A stretch of 22,008 nt of DNA, taken from UHGV virus genome UHGV-1547525. One strand, 5' to 3'. Numbering within the stretch: the stretch's first letter is position 1; every line of letters begins with the position of its first letter. Under the pieces are notes generated by a model that searched no databases, had not been told where the DNA came from, and worked only from the letters and a program-made list of their open reading frames with translations. This document shows positions 3,893 through 22,008 of this stretch, one piece after another. The stretch is from a virus. The position numbers were made by a program, and so were the translations under genes.

Positions 3893-3923
3893 CCAGACAA
3901 CAAAAAGCCCACCGAAGTGGGTT
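3893..3923 (-). terminator. Intrinsic-terminator-like hairpin in the G-T/H intergenic spacer
   Basis: Minus strand AACCCAC-UUCG-GUGGGCU followed by UUUUUGUUGUCUGG; stem about 5 bp with one mismatch, so moderate. Confidence 0.35.
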
Positions 3924-4044
3924 TCAGGCGACATAATAGTAGATATAGCGATTACGAGGCCACGCAATGCTTTTCTCCAGGAGCATCATCGATTTAATTA
4001 AAGACACCATCACATCTCTGTAACAGAGTGTACGTAATTAACAA

Positions 4045-16654: not shown

Positions 16655-18112
16655 TTAGGAGCGCCAAAAAAAACCTGAAAACAATATAATAACAGGATAA
16701 ATTTCAAGGCGACCAAGAATCATAGCTATGCACATTAAATATTTTGCAATGTCATTAAGCACTCCGAATGACGATGCAGTAGCCCCAAAACCTAATCCCA
16801 TATTATTAATACATGCAGCCACTGTTGCAAATGATGTAAGAAAATCATATCCCATACCATTTAACACCAGTATAAAAAACACCGTGAAGAGAGTATAAAG
16901 AAAAAAGAAACTCCATACAGACCTCATTACACGATCTGTAACTATCTTCCCTCCTACATTTACACTCAACAACGCTCTGGGATGAGAAAGCTGATTTATC
17001 TCGTGTTTGCTTTGTTTGAAAAGTATAAGAAATCGAAGTGACTTAATTCCACCACAAGTTGAACCTATACATCCCCCAAAGAAACTTGACGACAGCAAAA
17101 ACACTATCGTGTGCGTGGGCCAGTTTGCATAATCCTGCGTAGCTAAACCATTATCAGTGAGCATGGAGCTGGCAAGAAAAAACGAATGAATAAAACTTCC
17201 ATGCAAGTCATACATACCTATATGCCAGACCTGGAAAGAGGTAACAATGATCACCCCTAAGGCTATTAACAGAAAGAAACGAAGTTCAATATCTCTGATT
17301 AAAGGTTTTATCGTTTTCCTGCTAATAACAATATACCAAAGAGTGAAGTTGAAAGCCGATAGCAGGGAAAAAGAACCAGCCACCAGCTCAACCAAATAGT
17401 TATTAAAATATCCGATACTCTCGCTATGAGTTGAGAAACCACCAAGCGAAACTGTGGAAATCCCGTGACAAATAGCATCAAACAAAGGCATTCCTGCAAG
17501 TCTATAACAGACAATACAAGCAATACCTAATAAAGAATAAGTTATCCACAGTGTCCGTGACGTATCGGCCAGGCGGGGAGTGAGTTTGTCATCCTTAAAT
17601 GGCCCCGGCATTTCTGACTGATAAAGCTTTGCACCACCAATACCCAATAATGGCAATACAGCAACCGCCAGAACAATAACTCCTAAACCACCTATAAAAT
17701 TTAACTGTGACCGATAGTACAAATATGCCCGAGGTAATGAACTAACATCATCAATTACAGTTGCTCCTGTTGTTGTTATTCCAGAAACCCCTTCAAACAG
17801 AGCATCAATGAACGTTAAATTAAGTTCTGAGTCAATCCATAAAGGGAATGCACTAATAACAGAAAACAAAATCCAAAACATTACAATTATAATAAACCCA
17901 TCACGGGTACGTAATTGAATGCCAGATTTCTTAGTTGTATACCACGCTCCGCCACCAATGCAAAAAAATATAACGAAAGTTATAAAGAAAACGAACAGGC
18001 TTTTTTCTTTATAAAACAATGCTACAACCATTGGTGGCAACATTGAAAGACTATAGAGCCAAACCAGGAACCCACACATATGAGTAACAACTCTTACATG
18101 AGATGTATTCAT
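16655..18112 (-). CDS. trkG: Trk-family potassium uptake membrane protein (TrkG of Rac-type prophages)
   Basis: 485-aa polytopic membrane protein from ATG at 18112 (MNTSHVRVVTHMCGFLVWLY...); the ORF-track start at 18130 is a TTG extension. TrkH/TrkG-like repeated pore-loop architecture. Visibly AT-rich relative to the flanking phage genes. Adjacent to Rz/Rz1 remnants, as I recall for E. coli K-12 Rac. Confidence 0.8.
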   Translation of the reverse strand: MNTSHVRVVTHMCGFLVWLYSLSMLPPMVVALFYKEKSLFVFFITFVIFFCIGGGAWYTTKKSGIQLRTRDGFIIIVMFWILFSVISAFPLWIDSELNLTFIDALFEGVSGITTTGATVIDDVSSLPRAYLYYRSQLNFIGGLGVIVLAVAVLPLLGIGGAKLYQSEMPGPFKDDKLTPRLADTSRTLWITYSLLGIACIVCYRLAGMPLFDAICHGISTVSLGGFSTHSESIGYFNNYLVELVAGSFSLLSAFNFTLWYIVISRKTIKPLIRDIELRFFLLIALGVIIVTSFQVWHIGMYDLHGSFIHSFFLASSMLTDNGLATQDYANWPTHTIVFLLSSSFFGGCIGSTCGGIKSLRFLILFKQSKHEINQLSHPRALLSVNVGGKIVTDRVMRSVWSFFFLYTLFTVFFILVLNGMGYDFLTSFATVAACINNMGLGFGATASSFGVLNDIAKYLMCIAMILGRLEIYPVIILFSGFFWRS

Positions 18113-18249
18113 ATCTAAATATTCTTTCAATTATAACCACCTTGCTGCAATATTATGATTATACTGTATAAAATTTAACTCCTCTTAGATCTTACTTCAC
18201 TGTTCCTTATGAAACAATCATCAAAATGAATCATATTGTAGTTAAGATT

Positions 18250-18699
18250 TTACTTTAAACACTGCTCGGTTATGTATTGCTGAGCACCTTCAAGTTGGGC
18301 CTGCATCATTACCAGTCGTTCCCGGAGGGTGAAATAATCCCGTTCAGCGGTGTCTGCCAGTCGGGGGGAGGCTGCATTATCCACGCCGGAGGCGGTGGTG
18401 GCTTCACGCACTGACTGACAGACTGCTTTGATGTGCAACCGACGACGACCAGCGGCAACATCATCACGCAGAGCATCATTTTCAGCTTTCGCATCAGCTA
18501 ACTCCTTCGTGTATTTTGCATCGAGCGCAGCAACATCACGCTGACGCATCTGCATGTCAGTAATTGCCGCGTTCGCCAGCTTCAGTTCTCTGGCATTTTT
18601 GTCGCGCTGTTCTTTGTAGGCGATGGCGTTATCACGGTAATGATTAACACCCCATGACAGGCAGACGACGATGCAGATAACCAGAGCGGAGATACCAGA
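18250..18699 (-). pseudogene. rzpR: Rz (i-spanin) remnant lacking its 5' end and start codon (rzpR-like)
   Basis: From ...[33 protein letters not shown]... through [47 protein letters not shown]...EQCLK the translation tracks lambda Rz as I recall it. The similarity breaks about 7 codons in, and there is no in-frame ATG/GTG/TTG upstream before a TGA. Confidence 0.8.
18309..18494 (-). CDS. rzoR: Rz1 (o-spanin) lipoprotein, embedded in the Rz reading frame
   Basis: 61-aa [59 protein letters not shown]... with lipobox-like VVGC and a proline run, matching lambda Rz1 as I recall it. Embedded in the +1 frame of Rz. Confidence 0.8.
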
Positions 18700-18766
18700 A
18701 TGTCTCGATTCTAGGTATTCCGCCAGGAATCTCGTTCCAGAAATGAAACATCAGGTTCGCCAGTAC

Positions 18767-18798
18767 CAGAAACAACAAAACCCGCTCAATGGCGGGTT
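18767..18798 (-). terminator. tR'-like intrinsic terminator downstream of the Q-like gene
   Basis: Minus strand AACCCGC-CAUUGA-GCGGGUU followed by UUGUUGUUUCUGG, about 85-115 nt after the Q-like stop. Confidence 0.45.
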
Positions 18799-18881
18799 CT
18801 GGTAAAGTTCATGCGCTTGGTTCGCCTCGCGATACAGCTTTGCGAAGCATACCGGAATTGAAGCAGTTTATGCGTAAAAAA

Positions 18882-19424
18882 TCAAGCTATTTTTTGAGCA
18901 AATGATTCTCGCATGGGAATATATAGGGCATACTCAGCAACAGCCAACCAATTAGCAATTCGCTTTTCGCATGTGCTAAAACACCACTCAGGATGTGCAT
19001 CATTTAGCAATTCAGCCATTTTGCGCTTAGTCATCCCCCGTCCTTCATACCGTTGCCGGAGGACACTAATCAATCCAGGATGCTCTGCCAGCACCTCACT
19101 TATGACTCTATCAATACATAACGCCTCTGCATCAGTACAATGCGCCAGCCAGGTCTTTTGCTTGCCATTGATCATCTCTCGCAAAAACGCTTCCAGCTCA
19201 GGTTTCTCTATTCCCGCTTTTTTCATCCTGCGCAGGGCTTCATTGACGGCTGTTTTCGTCAATTTTTTGGATGCCAGCAACTGGTTAAACATATTTCCCG
19301 TCTTACCGCCGCCAATATACGACCAGCGCCCCCACATGCGCAGTTTTCCCTGAATCCAGACACTTTCCAGCGTGGTGAGACGAAGGTGTTCCCCGCTTTT
19401 GCCTGTATTTGTTGGGTAAATCAT
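18882..19424 (-). CDS. Late-gene antitermination protein Q-like (tentative)
   Basis: 180-aa ORF from ATG at 19424, overlapping the upstream stop (ATGA); the ORF-track start at 19544 is an upstream extension. Assigned mainly by position: last gene before the promoter/terminator-like leader and lysis remnants, after nin-region-like genes. Confidence 0.4.
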   Translation of the reverse strand: MIYPTNTGKSGEHLRLTTLESVWIQGKLRMWGRWSYIGGGKTGNMFNQLLASKKLTKTAVNEALRRMKKAGIEKPELEAFLREMINGKQKTWLAHCTDAEALCIDRVISEVLAEHPGLISVLRQRYEGRGMTKRKMAELLNDAHPEWCFSTCEKRIANWLAVAEYALYIPMRESFAQKIA

Positions 19425-19711
19425 AAATAACCTTCCTTTCTCCAGATTTCTTGTGTGCGAAAAACACCTTCTGCATGCATCAGGCGTAATTCTTCTTTGG
19501 TGTAATCGCTGGTTTTTACCCGCCCGTCGATTAGATCGTGGCATGAGCTACAGGCTATCGCCGCCTGCATATCGTGTGGTTTTGTCGCTGTTCCGCACGT
19601 CCCCGCCAGCCTGTAATGCGCCAGCACAGAGGTTTCGGGATTGTGATTGCAGTAGCCAGGGATTCTGATCTGGCACATCTGGCCTTTAGCCGCTTTACGT
19701 AAATTCACCAT
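19421..19711 (-). CDS. YbcO-like (DUF1364) putative zinc-binding nuclease of the nin region
   Basis: 96 aa with CQIRIPGYC ... CSSCH cysteine pairs. Length and motifs resemble the prophage-encoded YbcO family as I recall it. Start overlaps the upstream stop (TAATG). Confidence 0.55.
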   Translation of the reverse strand: MVNLRKAAKGQMCQIRIPGYCNHNPETSVLAHYRLAGTCGTATKPHDMQAAIACSSCHDLIDGRVKTSDYTKEELRLMHAEGVFRTQEIWRKEGYL

Positions 19712-20310
19712 TACGCAAACTCCAGTAGTTGTGCGGCCACATTTTCAACTTCCTCCTGAGAGGAGAATTTACGGAACAGGATCCAGTTCCACAGCACATT
19801 CAGTACAGATTTATAAACCTGCTGAAACTCGACTTCGTCCATATTCGCAAAAGCGATGGATTTTGCCCGACGCCCACGGCTACCGTCCGGATAAATATGC
19901 TCGGTGTAAAATCCGGCCTGAATGGTTACCCACTCGCGGAAAGCCTCAAACGACTTTAGCAACGCCGTATCCCGGGTTCTACGAGTCGCAACGGTGTTAA
20001 GGTATTGCTCTGCGGCATCACTCAGGGCTGGAGTGTGTTCCCGACCTACTGATTCGCACAGGTAATCAACGAAGCCCGATACCAGTTTTCGTTCGCGAGG
20101 CGTGATCGCCCCACCGACCGGAGTCCAGTAATCGAATCCCAGTTGCAGGAGTTTGAAAAAACGCTTGTGGAATGCGTAGTTACGCACACGCTTAAAGTCT
20201 GCGTGTATCCACTCACCTATTTTGATTTGATGCAAAAAATCGCAACTCTCCGGCGTCGCCGGGAGAAGTAAACCAGAAGAGGTTTGTTTGACCAGTTGTA
20301 TATGCGCCAT
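19711..20310 (-). CDS. nin-region hypothetical protein (DUF1367-like, tentative)
   Basis: 199-aa ORF, ATG at 20310, translationally coupled to the YbcO-like gene. Family assignment is from memory only. Confidence 0.35.
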   Translation of the reverse strand: MAHIQLVKQTSSGLLLPATPESCDFLHQIKIGEWIHADFKRVRNYAFHKRFFKLLQLGFDYWTPVGGAITPRERKLVSGFVDYLCESVGREHTPALSDAAEQYLNTVATRRTRDTALLKSFEAFREWVTIQAGFYTEHIYPDGSRGRRAKSIAFANMDEVEFQQVYKSVLNVLWNWILFRKFSSQEEVENVAAQLLEFA

Positions 20311-20590
20311 TTCTCAATCTCTCGATGGCGCAGCGCAGCAGATGCCAGTTGTTCAGGCTGACGAATAAAGTATAAATAAACTGGCTATGGTGTAAAGCCC
20401 CACATAGCATGAACAAACACTACATATCAAATAGCTGGTACAAGGATAGAAATACGACATTTATTATTAAAAACGATTAGATAAATTACATTTTAATGTT
20501 ATGCAAAAGTTCTTTTTTATCATAACATTTCAATAAAAGCATTACAGATGCAATCATCCCGTCATCATCAATTATTTAAGGTGGTTAAAC

Positions 20591-20683
20591 ATGGAAAATA
20601 ACAAGTTCGCACATCTCGCTCCTTTTTTATCCGTAATCCTTTTCGCTTGTTTTTTTTATATGGGCATTATTTTTATAAAGTAG
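20591..20683 (+). CDS. 30-codon small hydrophobic peptide ORF (hypothetical)
   Basis: ATG preceded by AAGGTGG at about 8 nt. Translation MENNKFAHLAPFLSVILFACFFYMGIIFIK contains one ~21-residue hydrophobic stretch. Lies in an AT-rich intergenic island; not in the ORF track. Confidence 0.3.
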   Translation: MENNKFAHLAPFLSVILFACFFYMGIIFIK

Positions 20684-21080
20684 CCACATGATAAGTTGCT
20701 GGAATCATATTTCCCACTCAAGTCATTAACATTTGATAAGATATATCTAAAAGGACGCCTTTACATTATTTATGTGTATATAATTTATTTATATACACAG
20801 TAAAGGCATCCTGGGAAAATATTTATCGTTAAAAAATACATCATAAATAATTAAGCTGAAATTTCAGAACACAACTAATACACACAATAAGGTTCAGTAA
20901 CAATAATCTATGTGGACTACATCGAGATTTTTTGATTAAACTTTAATAACTTATTCCTAACACACAGAATGCATAAACTAAAAGTAAAACAAATAGTTAT
21001 ACGAAAAACAACCATATTTATTATATCTTCTCCTCTAATCAACATATCAATTATGTGTTTCATAACAGCTTGACATAACC

Positions 21081-21115
21081 CTCAAAAACACGCATTTATA
21101 ATGCATGTTTTTGAG
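21081..21115. promoter_or_regulatory. 15-bp inverted repeat (14/15 match, 5-bp spacer) overlapping the TATAAT element and abutting the Shine-Dalgarno of the cupin-like gene
   Basis: CTCAAAAACACGCAT-ttata-ATGCATGTTTTTGAG; an upstream TTGACA at 21070-21075 and TATAAT at 21097-21102 are 21 bp apart. Confidence 0.5.
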
Positions 21116-21124
21116 GAGGTGGTT

Positions 21125-21463
21125 ATGACACACAAGAGAATTCCTAAAGATTGGGTAATCAAACGCTCAACTCCGTTCTTCACAAAAGAGAACGTACCTT
21201 CAGCGTTATTAACACATCATAATACAGCAGCAGGTGTTTTTGGGCAGTTGTGCGTAATGGAAGGCACTGTAACATATTATGGTTTTACTGATGAGAATGC
21301 TACTGAACCGGAGATAAAAGTAGTCATTAATGCTGGCGCTTTTGCAACAAGCCCACCACAATACTGGCACCGTGTTGAACTAAGCGATGATGCTCAGTTT
21401 AATATTAACTTTTGGGTCGCTCCAGACTTCTCGGGCGAAAAAGTCTATAGCACCAAAAAATAG
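21125..21463 (+). CDS. Small cupin-like protein, DUF1971-like (YeaR/TehB-C-terminal-like; tentative)
   Basis: 112-aa ORF from ATG at 21125 preceded by GAGGAGGTGG; the ORF-track start at 21101 lies inside the palindrome. Size and the ...RSTPFF...H...G...Y...W... pattern recall the DUF1971 family. Flanked by its own control region and terminator; plus strand, opposite to the phage genes. Confidence 0.45.
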   Translation: MTHKRIPKDWVIKRSTPFFTKENVPSALLTHHNTAAGVFGQLCVMEGTVTYYGFTDENATEPEIKVVINAGAFATSPPQYWHRVELSDDAQFNINFWVAPDFSGEKVYSTKK

Positions 21464-21492
21464 ATGATCATATTAAAAATGCTTTAACAGTC

Positions 21493-21529
21493 AGACCCGG
21501 CAGGGCTATCCCCGACGGGTCTCATTTTT
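21493..21529 (+). terminator. Intrinsic terminator after the cupin-like gene
   Basis: GACCCGGCAGGG-CUAU-CCCCGACGGGUC hairpin (two mismatches) followed by UCAUUUUUGU, about 30 nt after the stop. Confidence 0.5.
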
Positions 21530-22008
21530 GTAAATATATTGGTTCTACATTGACAGGAGACTTCAACCATAAGAAGTAATCTGAATACTTGAGCAATAAA
21601 TTTACTTAAGATTAATGAGCGCACCTTGCCGGACAAAGATAAACCAAGGTAACACCTTTTTTCTAGCCAGTATGTAATCAATCAGAAAGCCGCTCCATAA
21701 GAACAACAGCAAGACAATAAATTGCCATTACAGCCGCAATAGCCAGCGCACATTTGAGAACCAGCACGACAACCCCCTGTATTAGACGCACACCAGTCCT
21801 GATAAATATGAGGCTGTCTCGTCAGTGATTCAATACAACTATTGGGTATAGTTTCTGTGATTTTGTTCTGTAGAAATGGAACACAACAACCAGTCACCAC
21901 CAGCACTTCTTTTAATACGCAAAGTCCGACACAAGCTAACCTTTTAGTCCGCTTTGAGCGAGGAACGGAAGTTGGGACTACAGTAGAAATTTTAGCTGAA
22001 TAAGGAAT

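What the first reader, a model, noticed from the sequence alone, without database searches (positions are those of the whole stretch)
21125..21529. Plus-strand DUF1971-like cupin gene as an independent transcription unit inside the prophage
This 112-codon gene is the only strongly supported plus-strand gene in the window, with its own ribosome-binding site, control palindrome and terminator, set in AT-rich DNA. That is the signature of a moron expressed from the lysogen. The family (YeaR/TehB-C-terminal-like in my recollection) is linked to tellurite and nitrosative stress, which would make it a lysogenic-conversion candidate.
Basis: partly seen in the sequence, partly recalled or inferred. 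Interest (0 to 1): 0.45.

Follow-up and report, generated by a model that had tools for sequence, protein, structure and literature searches.

The report
Prophage gene wired to nitric-oxide sensor
A small stand-alone gene carried by an E. coli Rac-like prophage encodes a close relative of a Salmonella nitric-oxide-resistance metalloprotein. Its "control palindrome" is a binding site for the host's nitric-oxide sensor NsrR, so the phage probably gives its host an extra nitric-oxide stress gene that E. coli otherwise lacks.

Summary

New findings:
- **Operator.** The palindrome core (21087-21109, AACACGCATTTATAATGCATGTT) is an NsrR 11-1-11 operator. It scores 20.7 bits, the best site in the window by 8.7 bits. 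A 20-30 bit NsrR box lies at the same place in 51 of 52 enterobacterial homologue loci.
- **Marine relatives.** In 20 of 28 marine loci the gene follows norV-norW, the nitric-oxide (NO) reductase genes.
- **Closest relative.** The protein is 79% identical to the dsbB-linked Salmonella protein, which I take to be STM1808 (NsrR-regulated zinc protein needed under NO stress). His32 and His82 are conserved. It is only 41% identical to E. coli YeaR.
- **Distribution.** E. coli has no chromosomal copy. 8.4% of complete genomes carry it, always at ≥95% identity, and every copy whose neighbourhood was examined sits next to the ninB-Q module of a lambdoid prophage or phage.

- DUF1971 is the N-terminal, not the C-terminal, part of Haemophilus-type TehB.
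- Nothing supports a tellurite role.
- A second small plus-strand ORF exists at 20591-20683.

Verdict: an ordinary but neat moron, a new member of known kinds. Expression and benefit to the lysogen are untested.

The parts
20684..21069 (+). AT-rich, ORF-poor left part of the cargo cassette (GC 0.28).
   Evidence: Homology to phage vB_EcoS-683R6, which carries different cargo, ends at about 20680. The region is co-inherited with the gene in phage 666R9.
20752..20812 (.). Long imperfect palindrome forming a very stable hairpin. It is followed by UUUU on the minus strand, so it may be a terminator or insulator for minus-strand (phage early) transcripts.
   Evidence: Inverted repeats I1 and I8. 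The minus-strand fold is -33.4 kcal/mol, z=-8.6, and 0 of 200 shuffles fold as well. The function is inferred only.
21070..21075 (+). TTGACA, the -35 hexamer of the gene's promoter.
   Evidence: Invariant in 12 distinct E. coli alleles. It aligns with the TTTACA -35 of the Kluyvera/Leclercia-type chromosomal promoters.
21093..21102 (+). -10 region. CATTTA (21093-21098) sits at the ancestral 17-bp spacing, and a perfect TATAAT (21097-21102) sits at a 21-bp spacing. Which one is used is unknown.
   Evidence: Read from the sequence. Homologues have TATTTT or TATATT at the 17-18 bp position, inside the left NsrR half-site. The consensus scan did not call a promoter here.
21087..21109 (.). NsrR operator, an 11-1-11 inverted repeat: AACACGCATTT-A-TAATGCATGTT.
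   Evidence: It scores 20.7 bits with a weight matrix built from 26 published CFT073 NsrR sites. It is the best site in the window by 8.7 bits, and 4 of 1000 window shuffles reach that score. A 20-30 bit site lies at the same position in 51 of 52 enterobacterial homologue loci and in all E. coli prophage alleles.
21080..21116 (.). Full 37-bp palindrome with 17-nt arms. The 7 bp beyond the NsrR box on each side occur only in this allele group.
   Evidence: Allele comparison and pair counts show 3 pairs with changes on both sides, and 22 of 500 shuffles reach the covariation score, so the result is inconclusive.
21113..21119 (+). Shine-Dalgarno sequence GAGGAGG, 5 nt upstream of the start codon.
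   Evidence: Read from the sequence. A GGAG core is conserved in most homologue loci aligned (8 of 10; Pantoea has GGGGG, Phytobacter GAGG).
21125..21463 (+). Coding sequence of 112 aa: a DUF1971 cupin of the STM1808 / Vibrio 3DL3 type.
21493..21529 (+). Intrinsic-terminator-like hairpin plus U-run.
   Evidence: Folds. There is a compensatory change in the WP4-S18 allele, and a different hairpin plus U-run at the same place in the 7/2 / phage 666R9 allele.

Best explanation
The region from about 20684 to 21529 is a one-gene cargo cassette (a moron). It sits in the variable spot between the replication module and the ninB-Q module of a Rac-like lambdoid prophage of E. coli.

The gene encodes a 112-aa cupin metalloprotein of the same orthologous group as the dsbB-linked Salmonella protein that I take to be STM1808. 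The cassette brought its chromosomal-type promoter with it: a TTGACA -35, a -10 embedded in an NsrR operator, and a strong ribosome-binding site about 27 bp downstream of the operator centre.

Proposed mechanism:
1. In an unstressed lysogen, the host [Fe-S] repressor NsrR sits on the operator and occludes the core promoter.
2. Nitric oxide nitrosylates NsrR, the repressor leaves, and the gene is transcribed as a monocistronic mRNA ending at the hairpin at 21493-21529.
3. The protein, probably through a metal site involving His32 and His82, helps growth under nitrosative stress.

Shown here: gene identity and fold, the operator match and its conservation, the norVW linkage in relatives, the mosaic boundaries, purifying selection, and the absence of a chromosomal copy in E. 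coli.

Inferred: NsrR binding, the transcription start site, nitric-oxide inducibility, the metal site, and any fitness benefit.

For: Operator:
- The weight matrix built from Table 4 of PMC5320621 gives 20.7 bits at 21087-21109. The next best site in the window scores 12.0. Only 4 of 1000 window shuffles and 11 of 5000 shuffles of the intergenic region reach 20.7.
- In 51 of 52 enterobacterial loci, the top-scoring site of the whole ~8-kb locus lies 27-39 bp upstream of the homologue's start codon.
- In a 10-species promoter alignment with 51% mean identity, the invariant columns cluster in this box, the -35 and the ribosome-binding site.
- Other E. coli prophage alleles carry even better boxes, at 26.6-28.6 bits.

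Independent nitric-oxide link: the order norV-norW-(fpr-like)-gene in Aliivibrio fischeri and in 20 of 28 marine loci.

Literature:
- STM1808 is listed as an NsrR-regulon gene with a virulence role (PMC7527575).
- A 'tehB homolog' was predicted in NsrR regulons of enterobacteria and Photobacterium (PMC1274295).
- The Salmonella homologue is 79% identical and lies in the order nhaB-dsbB-gene.

Moron anatomy: composition; variable right flank; other cargo at the same spot in phages Evi and 683R6; presence in inducible phages and in 458 of 5426 genomes, with no divergent chromosomal copy.

Selection: 7 synonymous to 1 non-synonymous change between alleles.
Against: - No binding, transcription-start or expression data were available.
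- The window's allele has the weakest NsrR box of the E. coli alleles (20.7 against 26-28 bits).
- Its ancestral -10 is damaged (CATTTA), and the perfect TATAAT lies 21 bp from the -35, so the promoter of this particular allele may be weak or altered. The consensus scan did not call a promoter.
- The palindrome extends 7 bp beyond the NsrR box on each side, which NsrR binding does not explain.
- Conservation of the box among enterobacteria is partly shared ancestry.
- Most Vibrionaceae homologues have no NsrR box.
- Equating the Salmonella homologue with STM1808, and STM1808's zinc binding and His32/His82 data, rest on my memory of Karlinsey et al. 2012. That paper is not held in the library.
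- The biochemical activity of the family is unknown.
Confidence: 0.7

Rival explanations
1. The gene is passive or decaying cargo. The cassette was picked up from an enterobacterial chromosome and hitch-hikes with the ninB-Q module. In this allele the promoter and operator are degenerating, the AT-rich DNA is silenced (for example by H-NS), and the gene gives the lysogen no benefit.
For: The window allele has the lowest NsrR score and has lost the ancestral -10 T residues. No sigma-70 promoter was called by the scan. The upstream DNA is 28% GC. The prophage in the window is defective, with holin and endolysin missing. Only 8.4% of genomes carry the gene.
Against: The ORF is intact in 453 genomes at ≥95% identity. 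Alleles differ by 7 synonymous to 1 non-synonymous change. The -35, ribosome-binding site and core of the box are invariant across 12 alleles. The terminator hairpin is kept through compensatory change. The gene also sits in inducible phages.
Confidence: 0.17
2. The palindrome works mainly as a nucleic-acid hairpin rather than as an NsrR site. It could sequester part of the ribosome-binding site in read-through plus-strand transcripts, or form an 18-bp stem in the minus-strand early-right transcript that must cross the cassette to reach ninB and Q, acting as a pause, processing or termination signal.
For: Stable folds on both strands: -21.9 kcal/mol (z=-5.2) on the plus strand and -25.4 kcal/mol (z=-6.6, with a G-U closing the single mismatch) on the minus strand. 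The arms extend 7 bp beyond the NsrR box, and two flank positions change on both sides between alleles (A:T to C:G, and C:G to A:T with an intermediate).
Against: The extension is allele-specific and absent from the 7/2 and WP4 alleles and from all chromosomal homologues. The covariation statistics are weak, with 22 of 500 shuffles reaching the score. The same pattern can arise without selection through templated correction of quasi-palindromes. With the predicted promoter, the gene's own mRNA would start inside the right arm and lack the left arm. No U-tract follows the stem on either strand.
Confidence: 0.08
3. The gene is a tellurite-resistance (TehB-like) determinant, or a nitrate/NarL-activated copy of yeaR.
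For: RefSeq names some copies 'TehB family protein'. PDB 3dl3 is titled 'tellurite resistance protein B'. The protein shares 41% identity with YeaR, whose promoter is NarL-activated.
Against: Only the N-terminal DUF1971 part of the Haemophilus-type TehB model is matched (49 bits against a cutoff of 303) and there is no methyltransferase domain. A yeaR deletion did not change tellurite survival (PMC4959519). No NarL 7-2-7 site (up to 3 mismatches) and no FNR box (up to 2 mismatches) lies near the promoter. No yoaG-like partner gene follows.
Confidence: 0.04

Closest known systems
Salmonella Typhimurium STM1808 (NsrR-regulated DUF1971 zinc metalloprotein; Karlinsey et al. 2012, Mol Microbiol 85:1179)
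   Same: 79% identity over the full length to the Salmonella dsbB-linked 113-aa protein. His32 and His82 are conserved. An NsrR 11-1-11 box lies just upstream of the start codon. It is a single-gene unit.
   Different: The Salmonella gene is a core chromosomal gene between dsbB and ycgN, with its box centred at -39. The E. coli gene is prophage cargo with its box at -27 and a Kluyvera/Leclercia-type promoter. Zinc binding and the nitric-oxide phenotype are known only for STM1808 and rest on my recollection, because the paper was not readable here.
E. coli YeaR (b1797), first gene of the yeaR-yoaG operon
   Same: Same Pfam family and fold. Both have an NsrR box in the promoter. Both are nitric-oxide or nitrate stress genes of unknown biochemistry.
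   Different: Only 41% identity. YeaR is activated by NarL at -43.5 (PMC10853779) and is co-transcribed with yoaG. The prophage gene has no NarL site and no yoaG. It is a paralogue, not a copy.
Vibrio/Aliivibrio 'TehB' (PDB 3DL3), the last gene of norV-norW operon-like clusters
   Different: It is chromosomal and lies downstream of the nitric-oxide reductase genes, without an NsrR box. It is presumably controlled with norVW, which I infer.
N-terminal domain of Haemophilus influenzae TehB (PDB 3M70)
   Different: There the domain is fused to a SAM-dependent methyltransferase. Here it stands alone.
Classical lambdoid morons (lambda bor/lom, prophage sodC, Rac trkG)
   Same: An extra gene between conserved phage modules, with its own promoter and terminator and deviant composition, expressible in the lysogen. 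trkG lies in this same window at 16655-18130.
   Different: This one carries an operator for a host stress sensor, so it should be conditionally expressed rather than constitutive. It is transcribed against the phage early operon.

Membership tests
Pfam PF09313 (DUF1971) | Profile score above the curated gathering threshold over the whole domain | tested here: met
   92 bits against a cutoff of 23.1, covering profile positions 1-80 of 80.
Cupin superfamily (fold) | Small beta-barrel (jelly-roll) fold that superposes on solved cupins | tested here: met
STM1808-type orthologous group | High full-length identity to the Salmonella dsbB-linked DUF1971 protein, clearly closer than to YeaR | tested here: met
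   79% identity against 41-42% to YeaR. The Salmonella gene lies in the order nhaB-dsbB-gene.
STM1808-type orthologous group | Conserved His32 and His82 (reported zinc and nitric-oxide-resistance residues; from my recollection of Karlinsey 2012) | tested here: met
   H31, H32 and H82 are invariant in 15-16 aligned sequences.
STM1808-type orthologous group | Zinc binding and contribution to growth under nitric-oxide stress | not testable with these tools
   This needs ICP-MS of purified protein and mutant phenotyping.
NsrR regulon | An 11-1-11 inverted repeat matching the NsrR weight matrix in the promoter region | tested here: met
   20.7 bits, within the range of ChIP-positive sites such as hmp (20.3) and yihF (20.8). 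It is the top site of the window and overlaps the -10 region. It is conserved in 51 of 52 enterobacterial loci.
NsrR regulon | NsrR binding and derepression by nitric oxide or in an nsrR mutant | not testable with these tools
   No ChIP or expression data for strains carrying the gene could be accessed. No paper was found.
Moron (phage cargo transcription unit) | Sits between conserved phage modules and is absent or replaced in related phages | tested here: met
   The same ninB-side module is followed by an S8 peptidase and FtsH-like gene in phage 683R6. Phage Evi has hok and an acetyltransferase at the equivalent spot. The right flank varies among E. coli strains.
Moron (phage cargo transcription unit) | Own promoter and terminator, with composition unlike the phage | tested here: met
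   The -35, the operator/-10 region, the ribosome-binding site and the terminator are as listed in the parts section. GC is 0.28-0.41 against 0.47 for the phage. The promoter is identified by homology only and was not called by the scan.
Moron (phage cargo transcription unit) | Expressed in the lysogen independently of phage lytic genes | not testable with these tools
   This needs RNA-seq or reporter data.
TehB (SAM-dependent tellurite methyltransferase) | Methyltransferase domain; score above the NCBIfam equivalog cutoff | tested here: not met
   49 bits against a cutoff of 303. Only profile positions 11-106 of 289 are matched.
YeaR orthologue (yeaR-yoaG operon) | Near-identity to YeaR, a yoaG partner gene and a NarL 7-2-7 site | tested here: not met
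   41% identity. No downstream ORF has a family match. No 7-2-7 site lies near the promoter.

The most novel reading that the evidence does not exclude
The NsrR operator and extended palindrome may not only regulate the cargo gene. They lie in the path of the phage early-right transcript, which must cross the cassette in antisense to reach ninB and the Q antiterminator. NsrR bound there, or the 18-bp minus-strand hairpin, could act as a roadblock or processing site. That would couple Q expression, and so the efficiency of lytic development, to nitric-oxide exposure of the host. On this reading the phage has recruited a host stress sensor as a developmental input.
Probability: 0.05. Interest if true: 0.75.

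Novelty: new member of a known kind. Interest (0 to 1): 0.4.

Why it matters
E. coli has YeaR but no chromosomal member of the STM1808-type group. That group is NsrR-controlled across enterobacteria and norVW-linked in marine gammaproteobacteria, and the Salmonella member is reported to be needed under nitric-oxide stress and in mice.

About one in twelve complete E. coli genomes acquires the gene through Rac-like lambdoid prophages, with the host-sensor operator still attached. If it is functional, this is a compact example of lysogenic conversion that plugs directly into an existing host regulon. It could affect survival in inflamed gut, in macrophages or under nitrate and nitrite respiration.

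It also offers natural operator alleles (20.7 to 28.6 bits) for studying NsrR site strength. In addition, it gives the poorly understood DUF1971 family two independent genomic links to nitric oxide.

Tried and rejected
- Rfam at gathering threshold over the whole window, and at E≤1 over 20300-22008, gave only meaningless miRNA-model hits on the palindromes.
- No tRNA or att-like feature was found.
- The sigma-70 and terminator consensus scan called neither the promoter nor the terminator of the gene. Both were then examined by homology and folding.
- No NarL 7-2-7 or FNR box lies in the promoter region, so a yeaR-like NarL activation model was dropped.
- The Fur-box-like element found upstream of the Kluyvera-group homologues is degenerate in the window (12 of 19 matches, and elsewhere in the upstream region).
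- The covariation test on the extended palindrome was inconclusive.
- Small ORFs at 21484-21906 on the minus strand and at 63-341 on the plus strand had no PHROG or Pfam match.
- Literature searches for DUF1971, for STM1808, and for NsrR with prophage and tehB found no description of this prophage gene. The first yeaR search was swamped by the word 'year'.
- The key paper, Karlinsey 2012 (PMC3438343), is not held.

Full report
**1. What is there**

The window is a Rac-like lambdoid prophage of E. coli. On the minus strand it carries tail, head and terminase genes, a ParB-like gene, trkG, an Rz remnant, a Q-like antiterminator (DUF1133), a DUF1364 protein and a NinB-like DUF1367 protein.

On the plus strand, ATG 21125 to TAG 21463 encodes 112 aa. 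GAGGAGG lies 5 nt upstream of the start. A palindrome with 17-nt arms spans 21080-21116. A hairpin at 21493-21522 is followed by a U-run ending at 21529. GC falls to 0.28 upstream and is 0.41 in the gene, against 0.46-0.47 elsewhere.

**2. Protein identity**

Pfam assigns DUF1971 at 92 bits, E=2.3e-26. NCBIfam matches only positions 11-106 of the 289-position Haemophilus-type TehB model and scores far below its cutoff. The domain is therefore the N-terminal, non-methyltransferase part of that protein, not the C-terminal part.

Sequence search of the PDB gives three matches:
- 3dl3, a 119-aa 'tellurite resistance protein B', at E=3.5e-59
- E. coli YeaR (3bb6) at E=1.6e-24
- H. influenzae TehB (3m70) at E=5e-11

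**3. The family and its link to nitric oxide**

A database search found 461 relatives at E≤1e-10. The best 120 share 72-99% identity and come from E. coli, Salmonella, Klebsiella, Raoultella, Citrobacter freundii, Shewanella, Agarivorans, Neptunomonas and, above all, Vibrionaceae. H31, H32 and H82 are invariant.

I fetched 80 loci from species-representative genomes and looked at two features.

*NsrR box in enterobacteria.* In 51 of 52 enterobacterial loci, the best match in the whole ~8-kb locus to an NsrR weight matrix lies 27-39 bp upstream of the homologue's start codon and scores 20-30 bits. A typical site is AAGATGTATTTTAAATGCATCTT. These loci come from Kluyvera, Leclercia, Pantoea, Enterobacter, Buttiauxella, Citrobacter, the Klebsiella oxytoca group, Raoultella, Salmonella, Yokenella and Phytobacter. 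The one exception has a 1-bp indel in the box.

*norVW linkage in marine species.* In 20 of 28 marine gammaproteobacterial loci there is no such box. Instead the gene follows norV and norW directly, on the same strand. norV encodes flavorubredoxin nitric-oxide reductase (979 bits) and norW its reductase (586 bits).

Two unrelated kinds of genomic evidence therefore tie this orthologous group to nitric oxide.

*The Salmonella member.* It lies in the order nhaB-dsbB-gene-...-ycgN and its cluster includes a partial S. Typhimurium sequence named 'cytoplasmic protein'. From my knowledge of the LT2 gene order, this is STM1808. Papers I could read list STM1808 as an NsrR-regulon gene with a virulence role (PMC7527575). 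From memory of Karlinsey et al. 2012, which is not held in the library, it is a zinc metalloprotein whose His32 and His82 are needed for zinc binding and nitric-oxide resistance. Rodionov et al. 2005 had already predicted a 'tehB homolog' in the NsrR regulons of enterobacteria and Photobacterium (PMC1274295).

**4. The palindrome is an NsrR operator**

I built a symmetrised weight matrix from the 26 distinct 11-1-11 sites in Table 4 of the CFT073 NsrR ChIP-seq paper (PMC5320621).

- The 23-mer at 21087-21109, AACACGCATTTATAATGCATGTT, scores 20.7 bits. This is in the range of ChIP-positive sites such as hmp and yihF.
- The next best site in the 22-kb window scores 12.0.
- Only 4 of 1000 shuffles of the window, and 11 of 5000 shuffles of the AT-rich intergenic region, reach 20.7.

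A 10-species alignment of upstream regions has 51% mean identity. It shows that the window's TTGACA (21070-21075) is homologous to the TTTACA -35 of the Kluyvera/Leclercia-type promoter. In those species a TATTTT -10 lies 17 bp downstream, inside the left NsrR half-site. The operator therefore overlaps the core promoter, which is the geometry of a simple occluding repressor.

No NarL 7-2-7 site or FNR box is present, unlike at yeaR (PMC10853779).

**5. Allele variation**

Among 41 E. coli, Shigella, phage and IMG/VR copies there are 13 promoter alleles. The -35, the ribosome-binding-site core and most of the box are invariant.

| Allele | 23-mer | Score |
|---|---|---|
| Window allele (commonest, 20 of 41) | AACACGCATTT... 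| 20.7 bits |
| 7/2 and phage 666R9 | AAGGTGCATTTATAATGCATGTT | 26.6 bits |
| 30COLEC | AAGATGCATTTTTAATGCATGTT | 27.8 bits |

The window allele has the weakest box. It also has CATTTA at the ancestral -10 position and a perfect TATAAT 4 bp further on, 21 bp from the -35. Promoter strength and the tightness of repression of this allele are therefore uncertain.

The 7-bp extension of the palindrome beyond the NsrR box is specific to this allele group. Two flank positions change on both sides between alleles, but the statistics are weak: 3 pairs with changes on both sides, and 22 of 500 shuffles reaching the covariation score. Templated correction of a quasi-palindrome is an adequate neutral explanation. 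A hairpin function on the minus-strand early transcript (-25.4 kcal/mol) is not excluded.

**6. Moron status**

- **Prevalence.** The gene is found in 458 of 5426 complete E. coli genomes, all at ≥95% identity. Even a blastn search sensitive to about 65-70% identity finds no other copy. E. coli therefore has no chromosomal orthologue.
- **Carriers.** It occurs in three induced temperate phages and in 37 IMG/VR contigs. It has its own PHROG family of unknown function.
- **Left boundary.** In every E. coli and phage locus whose neighbourhood I examined, the left neighbour is the DUF1367-DUF1364-Q block. Homology to phage 683R6, which carries an S8 peptidase and an FtsH-like gene instead, ends at about window 20680.
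- **Right boundary.** The right neighbour varies among strains: hok plus KilA-N, queH, or hypothetical genes. Homology between the two main alleles degrades at the stop codon.
- **Extent.** The cassette is therefore about 20684-21529.
- **Selection.** The two alleles differ by 7 synonymous and 1 non-synonymous change in codons 1-107.
- **Terminator.** The hairpin is maintained, with one compensatory pair in the WP4 allele and a different hairpin plus U-run in the 7/2 allele.

**7. Function**

The best-supported statement is that the gene is an NsrR-repressed, nitric-oxide-inducible accessory stress gene of the STM1808 type. Its biochemical activity is unknown.

For the paralogue YeaR, a deletion in uropathogenic E. 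coli lowered H2O2 resistance and type 1 piliation but did not change tellurite survival (PMC4959519). The tellurite label has no experimental support that I could find.

The metal site (His32, His82) and a role in coping with nitric-oxide damage are inferred from Salmonella.

**8. Verdict**

It is wrong about the TehB C-terminus and the tellurite link.

The added value of this analysis is threefold:
- identification of the palindrome as an NsrR operator
- the STM1808-type orthology
- the norVW linkage

The gene is a new member of known kinds, both as a moron and as an NsrR-regulon gene. I found no published description of it. It is moderately interesting as a candidate for lysogenic conversion.

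Noticed in passing
window 20591-20683 (+): A 30-codon ORF, MENNKFAHLAPFLSVILFACFFYMGIIFIK, with a strong AAGGTGG ribosome-binding site. The N-terminal 18-23 residues and the ribosome-binding site are kept in phages 666R9 and 683R6, despite 72-90% DNA identity and a frame change at the C-terminus. It is unannotated everywhere and may be a small membrane protein or a type I toxin-like gene. It belongs to the ninB-side module, not to the DUF1971 cassette.
   Followed up: partly
window 20752-20812: A roughly 61-bp imperfect palindrome forming a very stable hairpin (-33.4 kcal/mol, z=-8.6). It is followed by UUUU on the minus strand, so it may be a nin-region-type terminator or insulator for the early-right transcript. 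A 56-bp insertion follows it in the phage 666R9 allele.
   Followed up: partly
window 21663-21973: A roughly 300-bp element present at 90-95% identity in about 1750 of 5426 E. coli genomes and in phages Evi, Tritos and mEp460, with no annotation under it in any listed record. It contains a small hydrophobic ORF on the minus strand (21678-21791, ...VVVLVLKCALAIAAVMAIYCLAVVLMERLSD) with no Pfam match. In phage Evi it lies next to mokW/hok.
   Followed up: partly
window 18131-18884: The lysis cassette is truncated. Between the Q-like gene (18885-19544) and trkG, only the C-terminal 101 codons of an Rz-like spanin remain (18253-18555), with an embedded Rz1-like ORF. There is no holin or endolysin, so this prophage copy is probably defective.
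   Followed up: partly
window 16655-18130 (-): trkG (PHROG 1916, full-length match) sits in a 37-40% GC island. It is a second, classical Rac cargo gene in the same window.
   Followed up: no
L005 about 3916-3934, and the equivalent position (-83 to -85 from the start codon) in L006-L026: A Fur-box-like sequence (GATAATGAGATTCATTATC, 13-17 of 19 matches to the consensus) lies just upstream of the -35 of the DUF1971 gene in Kluyvera, Leclercia, Buttiauxella, Pantoea and Enterobacter. This suggests additional iron control there. It is degenerate in the prophage copy.
   Followed up: partly
window 21080-21116 compared with alleles in L087, L093, L098, L004: The flanks of the operator show paired changes that keep the extended palindrome: CCTCA...TGAGG, CCTCC...GGAGG and CCATCA...TGATGA, with a one-sided intermediate in the Shigella allele. 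The clustered substitutions (GGT to CAC on the left, ATG to TGA on the right) look like templated quasi-palindrome correction.
   Followed up: partly
window 21101-21124: Some database entries (120-121 aa) start the protein at an upstream in-frame ATG that lies inside the NsrR box and has no ribosome-binding site. This is probably a mis-annotated start.
   Followed up: yes
L068, L078 (Neptunomonas) and L071 (Parendozoicomonas): NsrR-like sites of 22-24 bits lie 0.7-1 kb from the DUF1971 gene rather than directly upstream of it: upstream in L071 and L078, downstream in L068. Those upstream may mark the start of a longer operon that includes the gene.
   Followed up: no
literature (PMC2884951 and PMC1274295): The 'tehB' predicted as an NsrR target by Rodionov et al. 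2005 was described there as a homolog of tehB. The 2007 Salmonella study tested tehA and tehB and found no NsrR effect. The prediction may have concerned the DUF1971 gene rather than true tehB.
   Followed up: no
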